Shown piece by piece: positions 49,127 through 55,703 of a DNA stretch of 64,000 bases. Source of the stretch: Acidobacteriota bacterium. GTDB taxonomy: Bacteria > Acidobacteriota > UBA6911 > RPQK01 > JAJDTT01. Both the position numbers and the translations under genes were made by a program. The notes beneath the pieces were generated by a model that made no database searches, was not told the DNA's origin, and worked only from the letters and a program-made list of their open reading frames with translations. Within the stretch, counting starts at the first letter, position 1; every line of letters starts with the position of its first letter. The stretch is from NCBI GenBank assembly GCA_965263035.1, contig OZ253580.1, positions 5,440,001-5,504,000 of the forward strand, read 5' to 3'.

Positions 49127-49155
49127 AGTTTAGTCGGGGGGTCAGACACTGTCAA
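49127..49155 (-). promoter_or_regulatory. Sigma70 promoter of the aminotransferase gene (probably leaderless)
   Basis: TTGACA-17 bp-TAAACT, ATG 7 nt after the -10. Confidence 0.75.
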
Positions 49156-49235
49156 TTGGACCCGCCGGGCAGCAGTGGGGCCGTGGAATGCTGGGGAAGA
49201 CCTTGCACTGAGTACACACTCGGCTATACCGGGGG

Positions 49236-49309
49236 TGCACCCGGCGGGACTCGAACCCACAACCTCCAGGGGAGTCAACCCGGTACTGTTCCAGTTCAGC
49301 TTCGGGCGC
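49236..49309 (-). tRNA. Atypical tRNA-like gene (8-nt or bulged anticodon loop; possible pseudo-tRNA)
   Basis: GCGCCCG AA GCTG AACTGGAA CAGT A CCGGG TTGACTCC CCTGG AGGTT GTGGG TTCGAGT CCCGC CGGGTGC A cloverleaf. Confidence 0.75.
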
Positions 49310-50262
49310 ACCCACCTTCGTGCCCATCCCCTCTGACATTCAGCAGAAGTTTTGAAGTTTCTGGTCGGGAGAGAATGGCATGAGGGTGCATTCGCTTGAA
49401 TCTCAGCGGGGGACTTCGCTACGGTGAACTTGTCCAGAGGAAGCGGGCATTGATACGGAAGAAATGATGAGTGTAATGAGACACACGCTAGGTCCAAACT
49501 ATATCGCCCGAGCGAGAGAAGCTCTGGACTTCTTTGGTAATGAGGCTGTAGGGGTCTACCCCGAACACGGAAAAGAATTTAGTGCAGGTTCGCCTGCCGC
49601 CTGTGAGCTATCTGCATCTAGAGACCCCCATATGCCAGTGGATGCACTGACTATGGCTACAGCGTTGATTGGGTCGGGCAGCGAACACGTCCTAGCCTAC
49701 AGCAGAGCCATCACGGAGCCGATTCTGACCACTGCTTGCTGGAGTTGCGCTCGTTCCGTGCTTGAGCCGTGTGCCTTCGCTTTATGGCTTCTCAATCCGC
49801 AAATTGATCCCCACACCCGTGGTGGAAGGGTATACGCTCTCCGTTACAAGAATATGGAAGAAGGGTTGAAGTACATCCGTGCGGTCAGTGGGACCGATAC
49901 GGACATACAAAAACAGAAGAGCCGTATTCGTGAAGTTGAACGAGAGGCGTTTAATTACGGATATCTTCCGCTCACTGCCAGAAGCAGGGGCGGTAAGAGA
50001 AAAGGCAAGCGGATCGGTATTGGTCAAGTTATGCCTTCGGCTACAGAAGTAATCAAACAAATGCTCGATGAGGAAGGAACGTATCGGGTACTCTCAGCCG
50101 CAGCTCATGCGCGCAGTTGGGCAATCAGGGTACTCGGAAAAAGAGAAACTGGGCACAGACGAAAGATTGAAAATACTCAGGTGGTTATTTTCGAGGCTCA
50201 CACTAAACCCGAAACGATAGCAGCATTTAGTGTTGCGTCGGCGAAAGCACTAGCCAAGTCAC

Positions 50263-52258
50263 CCCGGATTATTCATCACGCAAACATAAAATGAGCAAGC
50301 GTGCCCGTCATGTCGAGTCGGATCAGAGGGTTACCGGATACCCACAGAAAACGGCTGGGACCCGACCTGGGTGAAACTCTATATTAGTTTTCAACGTCGG
50401 TTTAAACTCAGGATTCAAGGGGGGCCGAAACCCAAGTATTTCCACGGTTTGCGTCCCCTCCAAGGGTGGCAAAAAGAGGTGGCGTGCCCGTCATTTGTGG
50501 TATAGTTATAGTGCTAAGAAACAACCACAAAGAACGGAGCACGCCATGCCTGAGACGATACCGCAGATCCGGCCCTCATTCAACCGATCCCTCCGCCTCG
50601 AGACCCGCCCCGAGTTGCTCAGTGCGGACACGGGAGCCCTGGTGCAGCGGGAGCTGATGGATCGCAGCGGCCTCATCGACTGGTTGACCGGGCGGTTGCA
50701 CGATCCGCGACACCCGAGTTCGATCCGCTATCCGCTGTCGGATCTGCTGCGGACTCGACTCCTGCTGCTGGGGCAGGGCTGGCGCGACCAGTCCGACGCC
50801 GACCGCCTGCGTCAGGATCCGAGCTTGCGGGTGGCGAGCGAGACTCGTCGGGGCACGGCGGCCTTGGAGGAGGGCCAGGGGCTGGCGTCGCAGCCGACCT
50901 TGTCCCGACTGCTGGACACGCTCAGCCGGGAGGAGAACCTTCCGGTCCTGCACCAGGCGGTGACGGAGCTGGCGTGCCGTCGGATCGAGATGATCGAAGG
51001 CCAGCGGCGAAAACGGGGGAAAAAGACCCCACGGAAGAAGAGACGGAAAAAGACGATGGTCCTGGACGTGGACGGTCTCCCGGTCGAGGTCCATGGGCAT
51101 CCCCCGGGAAGCGAATGGAACGGATACTATCGCCAGCGGATGTACCACGGGTTGGTGGCGAGTTGTGCCGAGACGGGGGACCTGATCGACGGGGAGATTT
51201 TTCCGGGAGCCAGCTACCTGGGGAAAAAGGCGCTGAAGTTGACGCTACGGGTGGTGGACCACTGTCGCGGGCGTCTGTGCGGCTCGATGATCGTGCGGAT
51301 GGATGCGGGGTTCCCGGAGCCGGGGCTGCTGAAGGGGCTGGAGTCGAGAAGCGTGCCCTATATCGCTCGAATCCGCAAGAATGAGGTCCTGAACCGGATG
51401 GCGAAGCCCTACTTGACCCAGCCGGCGGGGCGGTCCCCGAAAGCACCGCCGAGGCTCTGGTTCCATGAGCTGACCTACCAGGCGGAGAGTTGGGATCGGG
51501 CGCGCCGGGTGGTGCTGGTGGTGCGGGAGCGACCGGGGGAGTTGTATCCGGATCATTTCTGGTTGCTGACGAGCCTGAGCCGGAAGCGTTATGAGGCGGA
51601 AGCGTTGCTGGCGCGGTACCGCAAACGGGGGAAGGCGGAAGGCCACATGGGGGAGTTCATGGACGTGCTCGATCCGGCCTTGTCCTCCGCGAGCCGGCCC
51701 AAGACGCACTATCGGGGCAAACCGCTGAAGCCGGGAGCGAAGCCGGAAGCGACGACGGAGGCCGGAGTTCGACCCCACAACGAAGTCTTGTTCCTGCTGA
51801 ATCTGCTGGGGTACGAGATCCTGCACCTGGGTCGGGTGCTGATGGAGCAGGCGACGCGTCGGGGCTGGAGTCTGCGTCGTTTTCGCGAGCGGGTGTTGCG
51901 AGTGGCGAGTCGGGCGCTACGTCAGGGGAGGCGATTGATTTTCGTCATCAGTCAAGGGGCGACGGACTGGAAGCGGTTGTGGCAGAGACTGGCGCGGGTG
52001 TCCTGGGCGCCGGGATAGGGGACGGCGGAGGCATCGGGCCCGTGGAAGGGACCGAAACGGTGGGGATTTCTCACCGGAAAGTCAACCTGTCGGCGGGTGA
52101 CGGCCCCCTTGGCCGTTAAACGGTTTATGACTGGTTCAATCGTCCTGTTTTCGAGCCGATTCAGTCGAATCGACAGAGGTTCAAGAGAAACCGGGCTGCG
52201 ACCGCACGAAAACGCCGGGTTGGAAGCCCTTATCAACATGTCCCATGAATAATCTGGG
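50263..52258 (+). mobile_element. IS1380-family insertion sequence
   Basis: TIRs CCCGGATTATTCAT / ATGAATAATCTGGG; 5-bp target duplication GTCAC. Confidence 0.92.
50546..52018 (+). CDS. IS1380-family DDE transposase
   Basis: LASQPTLSRL, VLDVD, VRMDAGF, YRKRGKAE. Confidence 0.92.
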   Translation: MPETIPQIRPSFNRSLRLETRPELLSADTGALVQRELMDRSGLIDWLTGRLHDPRHPSSIRYPLSDLLRTRLLLLGQGWRDQSDADRLRQDPSLRVASETRRGTAALEEGQGLASQPTLSRLLDTLSREENLPVLHQAVTELACRRIEMIEGQRRKRGKKTPRKKRRKKTMVLDVDGLPVEVHGHPPGSEWNGYYRQRMYHGLVASCAETGDLIDGEIFPGASYLGKKALKLTLRVVDHCRGRLCGSMIVRMDAGFPEPGLLKGLESRSVPYIARIRKNEVLNRMAKPYLTQPAGRSPKAPPRLWFHELTYQAESWDRARRVVLVVRERPGELYPDHFWLLTSLSRKRYEAEALLARYRKRGKAEGHMGEFMDVLDPALSSASRPKTHYRGKPLKPGAKPEATTEAGVRPHNEVLFLLNLLGYEILHLGRVLMEQATRRGWSLRRFRERVLRVASRALRQGRRLIFVISQGATDWKRLWQRLARVSWAPG

Positions 52259-52386
52259 GTCACTGTGGGAACAGCACTGCTACGCTGGATGGGAAAAGAA
52301 GCACTTGATCGAAGTATTTGAGCAGACGTATAACAGACTTGGGATTAAAGAGATCAGACGCTTTTGGCGACAGCCGTCGTAATGTA

Positions 52387-54040
52387 GTTCCCATCCGGAA
52401 AGACGTAAGTTATTGGGAAATAAGGAGTAAGGAGACATTTTCAAGCCCCGGTTTTGTCATAGTCATTTGTTAGTCTGTTGGTCCCAAACAATAGACAACA
52501 AAAGACTTACGCAAAACCGAGGGCTTGAACAATGCGTCGAAAACGGCAAAGCCAGCGTCCGCTTTCCGGACTCTGGCCCGATCACCGACTCGCGCAGGAA
52601 CTGAGAGCCGTTTCCAAAATCTTGGATGACAACCCTTCGATCCTGGAACTGGTTCTACACGATCTGTGTGACACCGGCAGTTCCGGCCAAGGGGCTCCAG
52701 GTCTCTCCGCAGAGCAGGTCCTGCGCTCGGCCATCCTCAAGAACTGGCATCAGCTGTCCTACGCCAAGTTGGCGTTTCTCTTGAGCGACTCCCAAAGTTT
52801 TTGTCGCTTCGCCCGCCTGTCCTGGCACTGGTCCCCCAGTGCTTCCTGTCTGCAGGAGAACATCAGCCGCATCCAGGCCTCCACCTGGGGACAGATCAAC
52901 CGGCTCCTGGTCGGTTGGGCCGACCGCCAGGGACTGGAGCGGGGCCGCAAGATTCGAGCCGATGCCACCGCGGTGGAAAGTCACATCCCCTATCCGACCG
53001 ATTCCCAGTTGCTGTCCGACGCGATTCGGGTCCTCACTCGAACCCTTCGCAGGCTGGCCCAGCGTCAAAAGATCGTCTTCCATGATCACCAGCTCCGGGC
53101 CAAGCGTCGCTGTATGAACATCCGAAGCCACCGGGGCGCACGGCGCCGCCGAGCGTATCGGGATCTGTTGAAGGTCGCTCGCAAGACCGCTCATTACACC
53201 CGGATGCCGCTGCAGCAAGCTCACCTGTGGACGGATCCCCGCAGTCAGGTCAGGGCCGGGAAACTGCGCTATTACTTGGACTTGATGACGCGGATCATCG
53301 ATCAGACCGAGCGCAGGGTCCTGCACGGGGAGTCGGTTCCGGCCCAGGAAAAGGTCCGCTCTCTGTTTGAGGAGCACACCGACATCATCAAGAAGAAACG
53401 GCGGGAGACGGTCTTCGGGTACAAGCTGTACCTGACCAGTGGCGTCTCCGGCCTGATTCTGGATTTTGAGGTCGTGCGAGGGAACCCCAACGATGCCGCT
53501 CAGTTCCAGCCTTGGCTCACGCGTCAGTTCGACCTGTACGGCCGCTGGCCTCGACAGGCCAGCTTCGATGGTTGCTTCGCCTCCAAGGCCAACCTGCAAT
53601 GGGCGAAGGACCAAGGCATCCGAGACGTCGCCTTCGCCAAGAAACGTGGATTGAAGGTTCAAAAGATGGCGCGCTCCAGTTGAGTCTACCGGCAACTGCG
53701 ACGCTTTCGGGCCGGGATCGAAGGTTGCATCTCGATGCTCAAGCGCGTCTTCGGTCTTCGACGCTGCACCTGGAAAGGCTGGGCCCACTTTCAGCAGTAT
53801 GTGGGCCTCTCGATCACCAGCTTCAACTTGCTGGTCCTGGCCCGCCTGCTGTTGTAGCCGCAGCCTTGAAATTCATAGCCAGACGGCGGCTTCCAGGGAC
53901 CCGTGTGTCCAAAACCCGATGCCGACCCTCAAAGGAGTCGAAAATCCTTCTGTCGGCCCAGCCGACGCCGCTCTATTGCAGCTTTTTGTCCATGCCTCAC
54001 CCTATCCAATCCCCGAAAATCGGACTTTCCGGGTGAGAAC
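52387..54040 (+). mobile_element. ISNCY/IS5-like insertion sequence
   Basis: TIRs GTTCCCATCCGGAAAG / CTTTCCGGGTGAGAAC; flanked by TAATGTA on both sides. Confidence 0.85.
52532..53857 (+). pseudogene. ISNCY-type DDE transposase with in-frame TGA at 53681
   Basis: RADATAVE, PTDSQLL, FGYK, GNPND, DGCF; the RFRAGIEG motif lies after the stop in the same frame. Confidence 0.85.
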
Positions 54041-54048
54041 TAATGTAG

Positions 54049-54417
54049 TCACGAGAGCTGGTTGAGTTCTTGCTGTAGCTTAACCAGCTCTCGTAGTTTC
54101 TCCTCATCTGAGAGCTTGGGGTTGTGGTAGATATCCAACATGTCGCAGCCCAAACGCAGGACGGAAAGCGGCGTGCCCAGATTTTGTATGAGAGCCTGGA
54201 ACTGTGGGATTAGCTCTTTCATCTGACCATCAAGTTGTCTCGCTTCTGGCACTTCAGCAAAAGCGGCGCGAATCAGACTCAAGGCGGCGCTGGTTGTCCT
54301 GTCGAAAGTACGTACTGATTCCTGGCTAGACAAAATCAGTTCCCGGGCCATCTTGGTCGTGGTGGAAGCCTTTAGACGAGTTGGCCTGGACTTCACAAAG
54401 CCAATCTGTTTCTTCAT
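54049..54417 (-). CDS. Hypothetical protein (helical)
   Basis: 122-aa ORF in AT-richer DNA, convergent with the DUF5677-like gene. Confidence 0.55.
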   Translation of the reverse strand: MKKQIGFVKSRPTRLKASTTTKMARELILSSQESVRTFDRTTSAALSLIRAAFAEVPEARQLDGQMKELIPQFQALIQNLGTPLSVLRLGCDMLDIYHNPKLSDEEKLRELVKLQQELNQLS

Positions 54418-55322
54418 ATGCGTCTTTTTTCTTTACTTATGCCAGATGGCAGCAAAACGTGCTACGCTTTATTTCTCCCCAAGCTGGAGGTGCAGAATGA
54501 CGATTTCTGACATTCTTGATAGCATGGTCAATGATGCCGAAAGCATCATTGACACCCTCCTCGTATCCAGATCGGTCCGACGCAGTAACCTTCCCAAGAG
54601 AAAACTCCTGTTCTTTCCGGTCGAGCAGGATGAGACGTTCCTGGCTTCATCACTGATTCCTCCTCCGGATAGTAGCAGATCCTCCACCATCCATGTAACT
54701 CCCAAACCGGTCATCGGACGACGAACGAAACAATCCATTCGACTATCGCCCAAAGTATTGCGCTTATATTCTAAACTAGAGTTTTCAGGGCAGAGGGAAT
54801 GACCACCATCGTGAACACGGCCACCACAAGAACAGCGATGATCGCCACTATCCTTACGATCACCCACAGAACGACTCCTGCGCCGCCGTTATAGGTTTCC
54901 TGATTTCTCATTAACGATCTCTGCCTCCATTTTTACAGGGACTACCTCGGCACTAGTACGACTCCATCGCTGGACGGGCGCTTCTCCTCGAACCCCTTCT
55001 GGAACTCCCGAAACATCTCGTCCACTTCGGTCCCCCGCGAACAGAGTTCCTTTTCCAGAGCCTTGGTGAACGTTGTCTCCGTCGTGTTCATCAAGTCCGA
55101 ATGGATTTCAGGACCAAAGTGTTCCGCTAAGAATGTAACGAACAAATTCCCTCCGTGGTAAAGGTTGGTGATGGCAATAGTGAGCGACGAGTCCAACCCC
55201 CAACAGCAAGAAAACGCTCCCCTCGCCGACCACTGATGTAATCCAATTACGCATCGGCACCTGCCGTCACCTGGGCTCTTGAGCACGCGATTTCACTCAA
55301 CTCTGGAGGCATCGCCGGGCCG

Positions 55323-55553
55323 ATGCAACTGGCAGTTCTGGAGAAGAAGTCAAGAAGGCCTGACGCCCATCTCCTGTCGGATGACGAACTTGATGACCAC
55401 AAGGCAAATGCGAAAGACGCCGAAGCCTATCTTGGCGAGTACCAGATCATGGAAAAGAAGGTACTTCCACCAGTGAAACAGATCCCCAAACGTTCCAAAC
55501 TTTCTCGTCGACAACGGAAAATGCAGAAGGCGAAGCGAGCGAAACGGGGCTGA
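55323..55553 (+). CDS. Hypothetical protein with basic C-terminus
   Basis: 76-aa ORF ending near the island edge; upstream GGAGG. Confidence 0.35.
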   Translation: MQLAVLEKKSRRPDAHLLSDDELDDHKANAKDAEAYLGEYQIMEKKVLPPVKQIPKRSKLSRRQRKMQKAKRAKRG

Positions 55554-55703
55554 CTCTACCCCCCCCTGCATATCGAGACCCAAAGTCCTCTCCAACATTC
55601 TACGGCCCCACTACCCGCCGGGCCATAATCGAGCCGGATGGCGTTGACCCGCAAGGGGGCTTCTGTAAGGCTTCTACGGGATGATGACGGCGAGGATTCG
55701 GGC

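What the first reader, a model, noticed from the sequence alone, without database searches (positions are those of the whole stretch)
49233..49313. Atypical tRNA-like RNA carried just inside the island end
Seen: a complete 74-nt cloverleaf with tRNA-Arg-like acceptor and D-loop, but with A8, a G3:U70 pair (the established AlaRS determinant) and an 8-nt anticodon loop UUGACUCC (or a 7-nt GAC loop with a bulged U). It has no purine 37 and no encoded CCA, and the acceptor stem extends to 11 bp (GGGT/ACCC). All stems remain paired while the anticodon loop is non-canonical. It is not the integration site. Inference: a decoy, regulatory or frameshift-type tRNA mimic; a decaying tRNA is the null explanation.
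Basis: partly seen in the sequence, partly recalled or inferred. Interest (0 to 1): 0.72.

Follow-up and report, generated by a model that had tools for sequence, protein, structure and literature searches.

The report
Odd tRNA-Arg relic on mobile element
A real but defective-looking transfer-RNA gene, descended from an arginine tRNA, rides just inside the end of a small foreign mobile DNA insertion; it is most likely a non-decoding passenger, and no evidence for a new function was found.

Summary
The described sequence is there: a 74-nt cloverleaf on the minus strand (49309..49236). It has A8, G3:U70, an 8-nt anticodon loop UUGACUCC, CCC instead of CCA, and an acceptor stem extendable to 11 bp. 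Rfam scores it 46.3 bits. The genome's five tRNA-Arg genes score 68-71 bits and its normal tRNA-Val(GAC) scores 64.5. It lies 65 nt inside the left end of a 6,443-bp insertion (49171-55613). The insertion is missing from 5 of 5 congeners. It is bounded by a 10-bp direct repeat and 27/33 inverted repeats, and two IS elements have landed inside it. The nearest natural relatives are tRNA-Arg(ACG) genes of another family in the same phylum. Positions 1-7 and 42-76 are nearly identical to these, while positions 8-41 are about 50% different with every stem pair kept. No copy with the odd features turned up in 40 relatives, 400 phylum genomes, two viral-contig pattern scans, phage or plasmid records. 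None lies beside any of 29 homologues of the neighbouring gene. Expression could not be judged. Best reading: a passenger pseudo-tRNA (0.55). A functional tRNA mimic is not excluded.

The parts
49236..49309 (-). tRNA-like gene, 74 nt: tRNA-Arg-type acceptor and T arm, A8, G3:U70, 8-nt anticodon loop UUGACUCC, A73
   Evidence: ARAGORN; Rfam 46.3 bits; fold; segment-by-segment comparison
49233..49313 (-). Extended precursor stem: 5' flank GGGT (49313-49310) pairs with A73-CCC (49236-49233), making the acceptor 11 bp
   Evidence: Sequence; minimum-energy fold. Natural tRNA-Arg(ACG) genes in L049, L050 and L052 also have GGT before and ACC after the gene
49161..49170 (+). Left copy of the 10-bp direct repeat CCCGCCGGGC (target duplication or recombination core)
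   Evidence: The empty site in G004 and G005 has a single copy
55614..55623 (+). Right copy of the 10-bp direct repeat CCCGCCGGGC
49173..49205 (+). Left terminal inverted repeat of the insertion (27 of 33 match the right end)
   Evidence: unique in the genome; 0 of 400 phylum genomes
55581..55613 (-). Right terminal inverted repeat of the insertion
49171..55613 (.). Whole insertion, 6,443 bp, missing from 5 of 5 congeners. Its own DNA is 48-53% GC against 61-62% in the flanks
   Evidence: Synteny; GC; an empty-site contig and contigs crossing the left junction in other samples
49464..50257 (+). N-terminal 265 codons of a 304-aa gene of unknown function, cut by IS A
   Evidence: intact form P0001; IS-free joint 50257->52259 in contigs of X12, X14 and X17
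52259..52382 (+). C-terminal remainder of the 304-aa gene, with its stop codon
50262..52258 (+). IS A, IS1380-family insertion sequence with about 20 full or partial copies in the genome; a secondary insertion
52388..54042 (+). IS B, ISNCY/IS5-like insertion sequence, inserted just after the stop of the 304-aa gene; a secondary insertion
54043..55580 (.). Right-hand unique part of the insertion, 51.5% GC, only short ORFs and no family match

Best explanation
The sequence is a genuine tRNA-derived gene from the tRNA-Arg lineage. It is carried as passenger DNA 65 nt inside the left inverted repeat of a small, foreign, low-GC mobile insertion. That insertion was about 2.8 kb before two IS elements landed in it. 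It entered an intergenic site of this species by a cut-and-duplicate event that left a 10-bp direct repeat. The tRNA gene is not the attachment site. It is most likely a non-decoding relic, a pseudo-tRNA. It keeps a foldable cloverleaf and a perfect T arm, so if it is transcribed it would probably still be recognised by RNase P and the CCA-adding enzyme. Three features make it unfit as a normal adaptor: A8, an 8-nt anticodon loop with no purine 3' of any U33-anchored triplet, and a drifted acceptor (G3:U70). The genome already has a normal tRNA-Val(GAC) and all five tRNA-Arg isoacceptors. Shown: the anatomy, the insertion boundaries, the ancestry, the redundancy and the lack of homologues. Inferred: that it does nothing useful.
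For: (1) The Rfam tRNA score is 46.3 bits, against 68.2-71.4 for the genome's five tRNA-Arg genes and 64.5 for its tRNA-Val(GAC). (2) Redundancy: ARAGORN on the whole genome finds Val-GAC at 4,061,063 and Arg-CCT, TCT, TCG, ACG and CCG. (3) The insertion is missing from 5 of 5 congeners that are otherwise 86-91% identical in DNA across the flanks. It has a 10-bp direct repeat, 27/33 inverted repeats and 48-53% GC against 61-62% in the flanks. (4) The three G:U pairs (3:70, 10:25, 29:41) are all G:C->G:U relative to the nearest natural tRNA-Arg. CCA->CCC and U8->A8 are further single changes. (5) No homologue carries the odd features: 0 of 40 relatives and 0 of 400 phylum genomes, where the 61 genomes with hits matched tRNA-length or shorter stretches; every top locus inspected was an ordinary tRNA gene or a 3' fragment of one. 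There were 0 exact hits in two viral-contig pattern scans. Phage and plasmid records gave no hit at >=80% coverage above 79% identity; of their hits only the table rows were read, and most phage hits were short generic matches over the 3' half. (6) It is not a conserved partner of the neighbouring gene: ARAGORN finds a tRNA in 0 of 29 loci that encode homologues of the 304-aa protein. (7) That gene is intact in its IS-free form and collinear with its homologues, so the island shows no need for a frameshifting tRNA.
Against: All 21 stem pairs are standard pairs. Against the nearest natural tRNA-Arg(ACG), the D and anticodon stems carry 7 substitutions, including two double compensatory changes (13:22 and 31:39, C:G->G:C), without breaking a pair. 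Random placement achieves this in 188 of 200,000 trials, and transitions-only placement in 8%. The T arm, variable loop and 5' acceptor strand are unchanged. This fits structural selection, although it may all date from when the ancestor was a working tRNA of unknown sequence. Differences are concentrated in positions 8-41 (about 17 of 34, against 2 of 42 elsewhere; Fisher p = 7e-6). Uniform decay from that relative does not explain this. G3:U70 with A73 is the AlaRS determinant (passage in PMC7609411). 8-nt anticodon loops work in yeast and Ashbya mitochondrial tRNAs. Expression was not measurable here.
Confidence: 0.55

Rival explanations
1. A structural tRNA-like module that serves the mobile element rather than translation. 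It could be an RNase P/RNase Z processing or stabilising signal for read-out transcripts. It could also be a portable copy of the tRNA-Arg 3' region that acts as a recombination target (a landing pad) for integrases that use tRNA-Arg genes.
For: The part that tRNA-targeting integrases normally use (variable loop to 3' end, positions 42-76) is 33 of 35 identical to natural tRNA-Arg genes, while the interior is about 50% different. Genomes G344 and G361 carry 47-nt 3' fragments of this same tRNA-Arg(ACG), starting in the anticodon loop, with no tRNA call at those loci (L054, L055). This is the footprint of elements that integrate there. The insertion's 10-bp direct repeat CCCGCCGGGC is identical to positions 61-70 of that natural tRNA-Arg, and 9 of 10 to the tRNA-like itself, on the opposite strand. 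Only 0.033% of genomic 10-mers match that tRNA on either strand. All stems are intact.
Against: The island has no integrase or transposase of its own. The genome has no partial tRNA-like duplicate: the only 22-mer match with up to 3 mismatches is the real Arg-CCT gene. Nothing is integrated next to the tRNA-like's 3' end. The match between the 10-mer and the tRNA was noticed afterwards, and the motif is a GC-rich near-palindrome present 88 times in the genome. There is no conservation in other elements.
Confidence: 0.18
2. A working non-canonical adaptor. It would be charged with alanine through G3:U70/A73, or with valine through A35-C36/A73. It would read GUC/GUU as a triplet, as the 8-nt-loop mitochondrial tRNAs do, or read a quadruplet (GUCA or AGUC), giving low-level mistranslation or +1 frameshifting.
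For: G3:U70 and A73 are present. The review PMC7609411 (passages read) reports that G3:U70 makes non-Ala tRNA bodies (allo-tRNAs, Ashbya mt-tRNA-Ala-UAG) alanine acceptors. It also reports that an 8-nt anticodon loop works in yeast mt-tRNA-Thr-UAG. Frameshift suppressors SufB2 and SufJ carry an extra anticodon-loop base (search listing and abstract starts only). The T arm, G18 G19 and the A15:U48 pair are intact.
Against: No register of the loop has U33 + triplet + purine 37. A8 replaces the near-universal U8. The acceptor context (C2:G71, C4:G69) differs from the genome's own tRNA-Ala genes, which start GGGG. The Rfam score is 22-25 bits below the real Arg tRNAs. No gene in the island needs recoding. 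It has no homologues.
Confidence: 0.09
3. A recombination scar: a hybrid tRNA formed when an integrative element carrying a canonical tRNA-Arg 3' segment recombined with a different or already diverged tRNA gene in a former host. The whole junction was later captured by the present element. This concerns origin and is compatible with it being non-functional now.
For: The pattern is mosaic, with a sharp switch at about position 42. Integrative-element footprints on the same tRNA-Arg exist in the phylum.
Against: Identity resumes at position 42, not at the anticodon-loop crossover seen in the G344 and G361 fragments. The 5' acceptor strand is also identical, so an ordinary isoacceptor ancestor that shares the acceptor and T arm explains the mosaic as well: Arg-TCT of G125 has the same T arm.
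Confidence: 0.1
4. A decoy for a tRNA-directed nuclease or other tRNA-binding factor, for example in phage-defence conflicts, possibly working with the adjacent 304-aa protein.
For: It is a tRNA-Arg-like body with an altered anticodon loop beside a widespread uncharacterised gene on mobile DNA.
Against: The 304-aa protein has no match in PADLOC, PHROGs, Pfam or NCBIfam. Its confident model (pLDDT 94.9) has no PDB match at E <= 0.001. None of the 29 homologue loci has a tRNA.
Confidence: 0.04

Closest known systems
   Same: Acceptor 5' strand 7 of 7 identical. Variable loop, T arm, 3' acceptor strand and A73 identical except C70->U. A14, A15, G18, G19 and A20 are kept. The GGT/ACC flank pairing is shared.
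   Different: A8 A9 instead of U8 G9. The D stem and anticodon stem are changed at 7 of 18 positions. The loop is 8 nt, UUGACUCC, instead of CUACGGA. CCC replaces CCA. Overall identity is 79%.
tRNA pseudogenes and passenger tRNA genes on mobile DNA (general class; recalled, not taken from a paper read here)
   Same: It is redundant with host tRNAs, sits on horizontally acquired low-GC DNA, scores low against the covariance model and has a non-canonical anticodon loop.
   Different: No stem is broken. It lies between a terminal inverted repeat and the cargo gene of a transposon-like element, not in a phage tRNA array or at an att site.
Mitochondrial tRNAs with 8-nt anticodon loops (yeast mt-tRNA-Thr-UAG; Ashbya mt-tRNA-Ala-UAG with G3:U70). 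PMC3113583 and PMC3874161 were seen as search listings with abstract starts; PMC7609411 passages were read
   Same: An 8-nt anticodon loop on a body derived from another isoacceptor family. In Ashbya, G3:U70 is added to redirect charging to alanine.
   Different: Those are essential, conserved and charged, and they sit in genomes that lack the competing tRNA. Here a normal Val-GAC tRNA exists, there is no conservation, and A8 and the loop's 3' side are abnormal.
+1 frameshift suppressor tRNAs SufB2 and SufJ (10.1101/2020.12.31.424971, PMC4238358; search listing and abstract starts only)
   Same: One extra nucleotide in the anticodon loop.
   Different: The suppressors are otherwise canonical tRNAs with a purine after the anticodon (recalled). 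Here the loop's 3' side is UCC, and no quadruplet target is known.
Integrative elements that use tRNA-Arg 3' ends as attachment sites (footprints seen in G344 and G361; general rule recalled from Williams 2002, not read here)
   Same: The conserved part of the tRNA-like is the part such integrases use. The insertion's 10-bp repeat equals tRNA-Arg positions 61-70.
   Different: The tRNA-like is complete and 65 nt inside the element. The chromosomal site holds no tRNA in 5 of 5 congeners. There is no integrase gene.

Membership tests
tRNA (Rfam RF00005, structural family) | Score at or above the curated gathering score, with the full cloverleaf | tested here: met
   46.3 bits against 29, model positions 1-71 of 71; the cloverleaf is the minimum-energy fold
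Translation-competent elongator tRNA | U8, and a 7-nt anticodon loop with U33 and a purine at 37 | tested here: not met
   A8. The loop is UUGACUCC (8 nt), or UUGACUC with U37 in the bulged register. That these positions are near-universal is recalled knowledge
Translation-competent elongator tRNA | T loop, G18 G19 and the 15:48 pair for the L-shape | tested here: met
   T loop TTCGAGT, D loop AACTGGAA, A15 with U48
Translation-competent elongator tRNA | Expressed, CCA-tailed and aminoacylated | not testable with these tools
   Only assembled contigs of two metatranscriptomes were available. Lack of an encoded CCA is uninformative, since 23 of 63 tRNA calls in this genome lack it
tRNA-Arg | Arg-type body: acceptor GCGCCCG and A20 | tested here: met
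   Identical acceptor 5' strand to 4 of 5 own tRNA-Arg genes; A20 present
tRNA-Arg | Arg anticodon (C35 as the main ArgRS determinant; recalled from E. coli work) | tested here: not met
   The anticodon region is GAC(U), with A at 35
tRNA-Ala identity set | G3:U70 with A73 | tested here: met
   the determinant is as stated in PMC7609411
tRNA-Ala identity set | Actual charging by AlaRS; acceptor context G2:C71 and G4:C69 | tested here: inconclusive
   The context is C2:G71 and C4:G69, unlike the genome's tRNA-Ala genes, which begin GGGG. Charging cannot be tested here
tRNA-Val(GAC) | A35 and C36 in a normal 7-nt loop, with a Val-type body | tested here: not met
   GAC is present but in an 8-nt loop. 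The body is unlike the genome's Val-GAC gene
+1 frameshift suppressor tRNA | 8-nt anticodon loop on an otherwise canonical tRNA, with a quadruplet target | tested here: inconclusive
   The 8-nt loop is present. The body is not canonical (A8, no purine after the anticodon). The island's one intact-type gene needs no frameshift. Decoding was not testable
tRNA-gene attachment site of an integrative element | The tRNA abuts the element end, a repeat of the tRNA 3' segment lies at the far end, and an integrase is present | tested here: not met
   The tRNA-like is complete and 65 nt inside. The site has no tRNA in 5 of 5 congeners. No integrase was found. Only a 10-mer is shared
DDE-type insertion sequence or transposon (for the carrier element) | Terminal inverted repeats and a target-site duplication | tested here: met
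   27/33 inverted repeats exactly at the synteny breakpoints; 10-bp direct repeat; one copy in the empty sites of G004 and G005
DDE-type insertion sequence or transposon (for the carrier element) | Its own transposase, or other copies or a parent element with the same ends | tested here: not met
   The only transposases belong to the two nested IS elements, which have different ends. The ends are unique in the genome and were not found in 400 phylum genomes
YrlA / Y RNA-like (tRNA-like module) | Rfam RF02553 gathering score | tested here: not met
   17.5 bits against 69, E = 0.42

The most novel reading that the evidence does not exclude
A mobile-element-borne adaptor built on a tRNA-Arg body. 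Under this reading, selection has kept every stem while rewriting the identity: G3:U70/A73 for alanine charging, and a GAC-containing 8-nt loop. It would insert alanine at valine codons, or shift frame at GUC-N, in whichever host the element enters. Alternatively, it could be a portable tRNA-Arg-type landing pad whose conserved 3' half recruits tRNA-targeting integrases, in line with the element's own 10-bp repeat matching tRNA-Arg positions 61-70.
Probability: 0.1. Interest if true: 0.7.

Novelty: new member of a known kind. Interest (0 to 1): 0.3.

Why it matters
If it is only a relic, it is a tidy example of a tRNA gene hitch-hiking inside a non-autonomous transposon-like element. It is also a caution for annotation: ARAGORN calls it tRNA-Val(GAC), which would double-count that isoacceptor. 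If the RNA is made and charged, it would be a rare bacterial case of a horizontally mobile tRNA with a rewritten identity (G3:U70 on an Arg body with a Val-type 8-nt loop). That would bear on how mistranslating or frameshifting tRNAs arise and spread. The match between the element's target repeat and the tRNA-Arg T-stem/acceptor sequence, if not chance, would link target choice of a mobile element to the tRNA it carries.

Tried and rejected
Expression: one run search and one read-laying run were available. The two RNA runs (X17, X18) are kept as assembled contigs. They have low-depth pieces on the 304-aa gene (49332-49544, 49484-49716, 49937-50098, and the IS-free joint). No piece lies over 49236-49309. 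Contigs cannot show absence, and size-fractionated libraries usually lose tRNAs, so this says nothing either way.

Variation: the table of differing letters was truncated (283 rows not shown). I therefore could not see whether the 14 and 19 differences in the X12 and X14 contigs fall in the tRNA-like.

Attachment-site idea: rejected.

YrlA-like RNA: rejected.

Promoter: the sigma-70 scan found none upstream of the tRNA-like. Its only hit is the aminotransferase promoter outside the island. The scan does not cover other promoter types, so this is not evidence of silence.

Conserved partner of the 304-aa gene: rejected. 0 of 29 loci have a tRNA, though some loci have under 400 nt upstream. There is no shared DNA or translated similarity between the island's other unique parts and those loci.

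Function of the 304-aa protein: no match in Pfam, NCBIfam, PADLOC or PHROGs. Foldseek against PDB gave nothing at E <= 0.001. The ESM Atlas gives only a DUF5677 lead, found on 13-16% of members of the top clusters.

Parent element: the inverted repeat was not found elsewhere in the genome or in 400 phylum genomes. The 1,091-bp left unique part has no match in plasmid or phage records. I could not assign the carrier to an IS family; comparisons with IS family end sequences were from memory only and are not claimed.

Partial att-like duplicates of the tRNA-like 3' half in the genome: none.

One weak hit used only as an example of an ordinary tRNA (L004, tRNA-Arg-ACG) comes from the unpublished genome G016.

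Literature: four full-text searches (and the find). I did not search for, and do not claim absence of, prior reports of this particular gene. The Bacillus cereus pseudo-tRNA 'tRNA-Other' is recalled and did not appear in the listing. Supplementary files were not consulted.
Full report
THE OBSERVATION. The sequence is as described. ARAGORN calls a tRNA on the minus strand at 49233-49310 with anticodon GAC. Rfam's tRNA model matches 49236-49309 (-) over its full length at 46.3 bits, against a gathering score of 29, with E = 1e-6 for the window.

Read 5'->3' on the minus strand, the parts are:
- acceptor GCGCCCG
- A8 A9
- D stem GCTG/CAGT with loop AACTGGAA
- A26
- anticodon stem CCGGG/CCTGG with the 8-nt loop TTGACTCC
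- variable loop AGGTT
- T arm GTGGG-TTCGAGT-CCCGC
- acceptor 3' strand CGGGTGC, so G3 pairs with U70
- A73, followed by CCC

The flank GGGT pairs with A73-CCC, and RNAfold's minimum-energy structure is this extended cloverleaf. A second register is possible: a 7-nt loop TTGACTC with a bulged U in the stem. In neither register is there a purine after a U33-anchored triplet.

One point in the finding needs correcting. The missing CCA says little, because 23 of 63 ARAGORN calls in this genome lack an encoded CCA. These include single-copy genes such as Lys-TTT, Arg-TCT, Arg-ACG and Arg-CCT.

HOW GOOD A tRNA IS IT. The whole genome holds a normal tRNA-Val(GAC) and all five tRNA-Arg isoacceptors (6.2 Mb, one contig, window = C1:5,440,001-5,504,000). 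Rfam scores the Arg genes 68.2, 71.4, 70.1, 70.6 and 71.1 bits and Val-GAC 64.5 bits. The tRNA-like is 22-25 bits below the Arg genes. Its acceptor 5' strand is identical to that of 4 of the 5 Arg genes.

WHERE IT SITS. I aligned window 40,001-62,000 to the orthologous 19-kb regions of five congeners (G001-G005). Their aminotransferase orthologue is 95-96% identical in protein. In all five, similarity of 86-91% runs up to 49160-49171 and resumes at 55613-55621. The junctions show a single CCCGCCGGGC in the empty sites of G004 and G005. In the window there are two copies, at 49161-49170 and 55614-55623.

Directly inside these repeats the ends are inverted repeats. Positions 49173-49205 match the reverse complement of 55581-55613 at 27 of 33 positions. 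The insertion is therefore 49171-55613, which is 6,443 bp.

Two IS elements have landed inside it:
- An IS1380-family element at 50262-52258, with about 20 full or partial copies in the genome.
- An ISNCY/IS5-like element at about 52388-54042.

Without them the element is about 2.8 kb, with 48-53% GC against 61-62% in the flanks. It holds three things:
- The tRNA-like, whose 3' end is 65 nt from the left end and which points outward.
- A divergent 304-aa gene, cut by the first IS. Its intact form is P0001, and its C-terminus is at 52259-52382.
- About 1.5 kb with only short ORFs and no family match.

No transposase or integrase belongs to the element itself. Its inverted repeat occurs nowhere else in the genome and in none of 400 other genomes of the phylum. 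ARAGORN finds no tRNA in the five orthologous regions.

Contigs from other public samples cross the left junction, carry the element without the first IS (joint 50257->52259), and differ from the window at 14 of about 1,180 and 19 of about 1,126 positions. A more abundant contig in one sample shows the empty site. The element is thus polymorphic in nature, and the IS insertion is recent.

ANCESTRY. A 251-nt query found no homologue in 40 relatives, including 8 of the same genus. The four weak hits were ordinary tRNAs or unrelated flank.

A 160-nt query over 400 genomes of the phylum matched tRNA-length or shorter stretches. The 14 top loci inspected with ARAGORN held ordinary tRNA genes (Arg or Met at the matched place) or, in 3 loci, no tRNA call; sequence reading shows these three are 3' tRNA-Arg pieces, one at a contig edge. 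The best hits are tRNA-Arg(ACG) genes of another family: 79% over the full length in G138, G171, G297 and G336, and 97% over the 3' 34 nt in G127, G307, G344 and G361.

Segment by segment against that tRNA-Arg:
- Positions 1-7: 0 differences.
- Variable loop, T arm and A73: 0 differences.
- 3' acceptor strand: 1 difference (C70->U).
- Tail: CCA->CCC.
- Positions 8-41: about 17 of 34 differ (16-18 depending on how the loop is aligned).

The contrast between regions is significant (2 of 42 against 17 of 34, Fisher p = 7e-6). The 7 substitutions in the D and anticodon stems include two double compensatory changes (13:22 and 31:39). They leave all 9 pairs standard. Random placement does so in 188 of 200,000 trials (0.09%), and transitions-only placement in 8%.

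Two conclusions follow. First, the molecule is not the product of heavy random decay from that relative. Most of its divergence arose under cloverleaf constraint, either in an unknown working ancestor or later. The ancestor could be another Arg isoacceptor, since these share the acceptor and T arm; Arg-TCT of G125 shows this. Second, the clearly abnormal features are few: A8, the anticodon loop, CCC, and three G:U pairs that are each G:C in the relative.

AN UNEXPLAINED COINCIDENCE. The element's 10-bp direct repeat CCCGCCGGGC equals positions 61-70 of the natural tRNA-Arg. It matches 9 of 10 in the tRNA-like, which lies on the opposite strand. Only 0.033% of genomic 10-mers match that tRNA on either strand, and 0.12% of 9-mers match the tRNA-like.

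G344 and G361 carry 47-nt 3' fragments of the same tRNA-Arg, beginning in the anticodon loop, at loci where ARAGORN calls no tRNA. This is the footprint of integrative elements that use this tRNA. It keeps open a link between the element's target choice and the tRNA it carries.

Against that link, I noticed the match afterwards, and the motif is a GC-rich near-palindrome present 88 times in the genome. The geometry does not fit a tRNA attachment site, because the tRNA-like is complete and 65 nt inside. The genome has no partial duplicate of the tRNA-like.

THE NEIGHBOURING GENE. The 304-aa protein belongs to a large uncharacterised family: 1,499 representatives at E <= 0.001 and 384 at E <= 1e-30. 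It folds confidently (pLDDT 94.9), has no PDB match at E <= 0.001, and has only a DUF5677 lead from the Atlas. ARAGORN finds a tRNA in none of 29 loci encoding homologues: 3 genome contigs and 26 metagenome contigs. So the pairing seen here is not conserved. The IS-free protein is collinear with its homologues, so nothing in the island calls for a frameshifting tRNA.

WHAT IT MOST LIKELY IS. I commit to a passenger pseudo-tRNA (0.55). It is a tRNA-Arg-lineage gene that came in with foreign DNA, is redundant in this host, and has lost the features needed for normal decoding. If transcribed it would probably still be folded, processed and CCA-tailed, because the acceptor, T arm and elbow contacts are intact; this step is inferred.

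The rivals are:
- A structural tRNA-like module serving the element, as a processing signal or as a portable tRNA-Arg-type recombination target (0.18).
- A recombination-scar origin (0.10), which is compatible with non-function.
- A working non-canonical adaptor charged through G3:U70 or A35-C36 (0.09).
- A decoy for a tRNA-directed factor (0.04).

Precedents exist for the adaptor reading: 8-nt loops in yeast and Ashbya mitochondrial tRNAs, and G3:U70 transplanted onto other bodies (PMC7609411 passages; listings). SufB2 and SufJ are further precedents (listing only). All of those, however, are conserved or otherwise canonical molecules.

NOVELTY AND SCORE. This is a new instance of a known kind: a non-canonical or pseudo-tRNA on mobile DNA. 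Its placement between a terminal inverted repeat and the cargo is unusual, and the pattern of conservation is curious. No evidence of function was obtainable. Interest 0.3. The boldest reading not excluded is a mobile identity-switched adaptor or landing pad, at about 0.1 probability.

The pdb_via_wide library was not available.

Noticed in passing
G000:C1:42,767-48,752 (outside the window; locus L071): A cluster of low-scoring tRNA-like genes. Two 91-nt 'Leu-CAG' genes and an 89-nt 'Phe-GAA' gene have long variable arms. Four tRNA-like units spaced about 100 bp apart in tandem score 50.6-52.7 Rfam bits. ARAGORN gives three of them alanine anticodons (AGC, CGC, GGC), yet their acceptor starts GCCGGTG and has no G3:U70. 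This looks like a second, larger set of non-canonical tRNAs in this genome.
   Followed up: partly
window 49161-49170 and 55614-55623; loci L049, L056: The insertion's 10-bp direct repeat CCCGCCGGGC is identical to positions 61-70 of the nearest natural tRNA-Arg(ACG). The chance is about 3e-4 per site. It is unexplained.
   Followed up: partly
L054 (G344) and L055 (G361): 47-nt 3' fragments of tRNA-Arg(ACG), starting in the anticodon loop, at loci where ARAGORN calls no tRNA. They are probably att repeats of integrative elements that use this tRNA in another family of the phylum.
   Followed up: no
window 50262-52258; G000:C1:6,090,239-6,096,082: The IS1380-family element has about 20 full or partial copies at 94.6-99.95% identity, including three head-to-tail tandem copies. 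Several copies carry a 244-bp internal deletion (matches stop at 51256 and resume at 51501).
   Followed up: no
window 49127-49155 (-): The only sigma-70-like promoter in the region (TTGACA-17-TAAACT, 10 of 12) serves the aminotransferase gene. Its -35 hexamer lies 15 nt from the insertion boundary. Read-out from the element, which the tRNA-like faces, could therefore enter that gene.
   Followed up: no
window 49464-50257 + 52259-52382; proteins P0001-P0154: The 304-aa protein family is large (1,499 representatives at E <= 0.001), mostly helical and confidently modelled (pLDDT 94.9). It has no Pfam family and no PDB fold match at E <= 0.001. Invariant residues are R96, R118, S210 and H214.
   Followed up: partly
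G000:C1 (whole genome): There are five tRNA-Leu(TAA) calls, two of them identical in sequence and 3' flank (2,101,850 and 2,914,932). This suggests a duplicated segment or a mobile element that carries this tRNA.
   Followed up: no
window 42878-44323: The ankyrin-repeat gene region and the stretch 43975-44246 are rearranged or missing in some congeners (G001 and G004 differ from G002, G003 and G005). This is a second variable spot 5 kb from the insertion.
   Followed up: no
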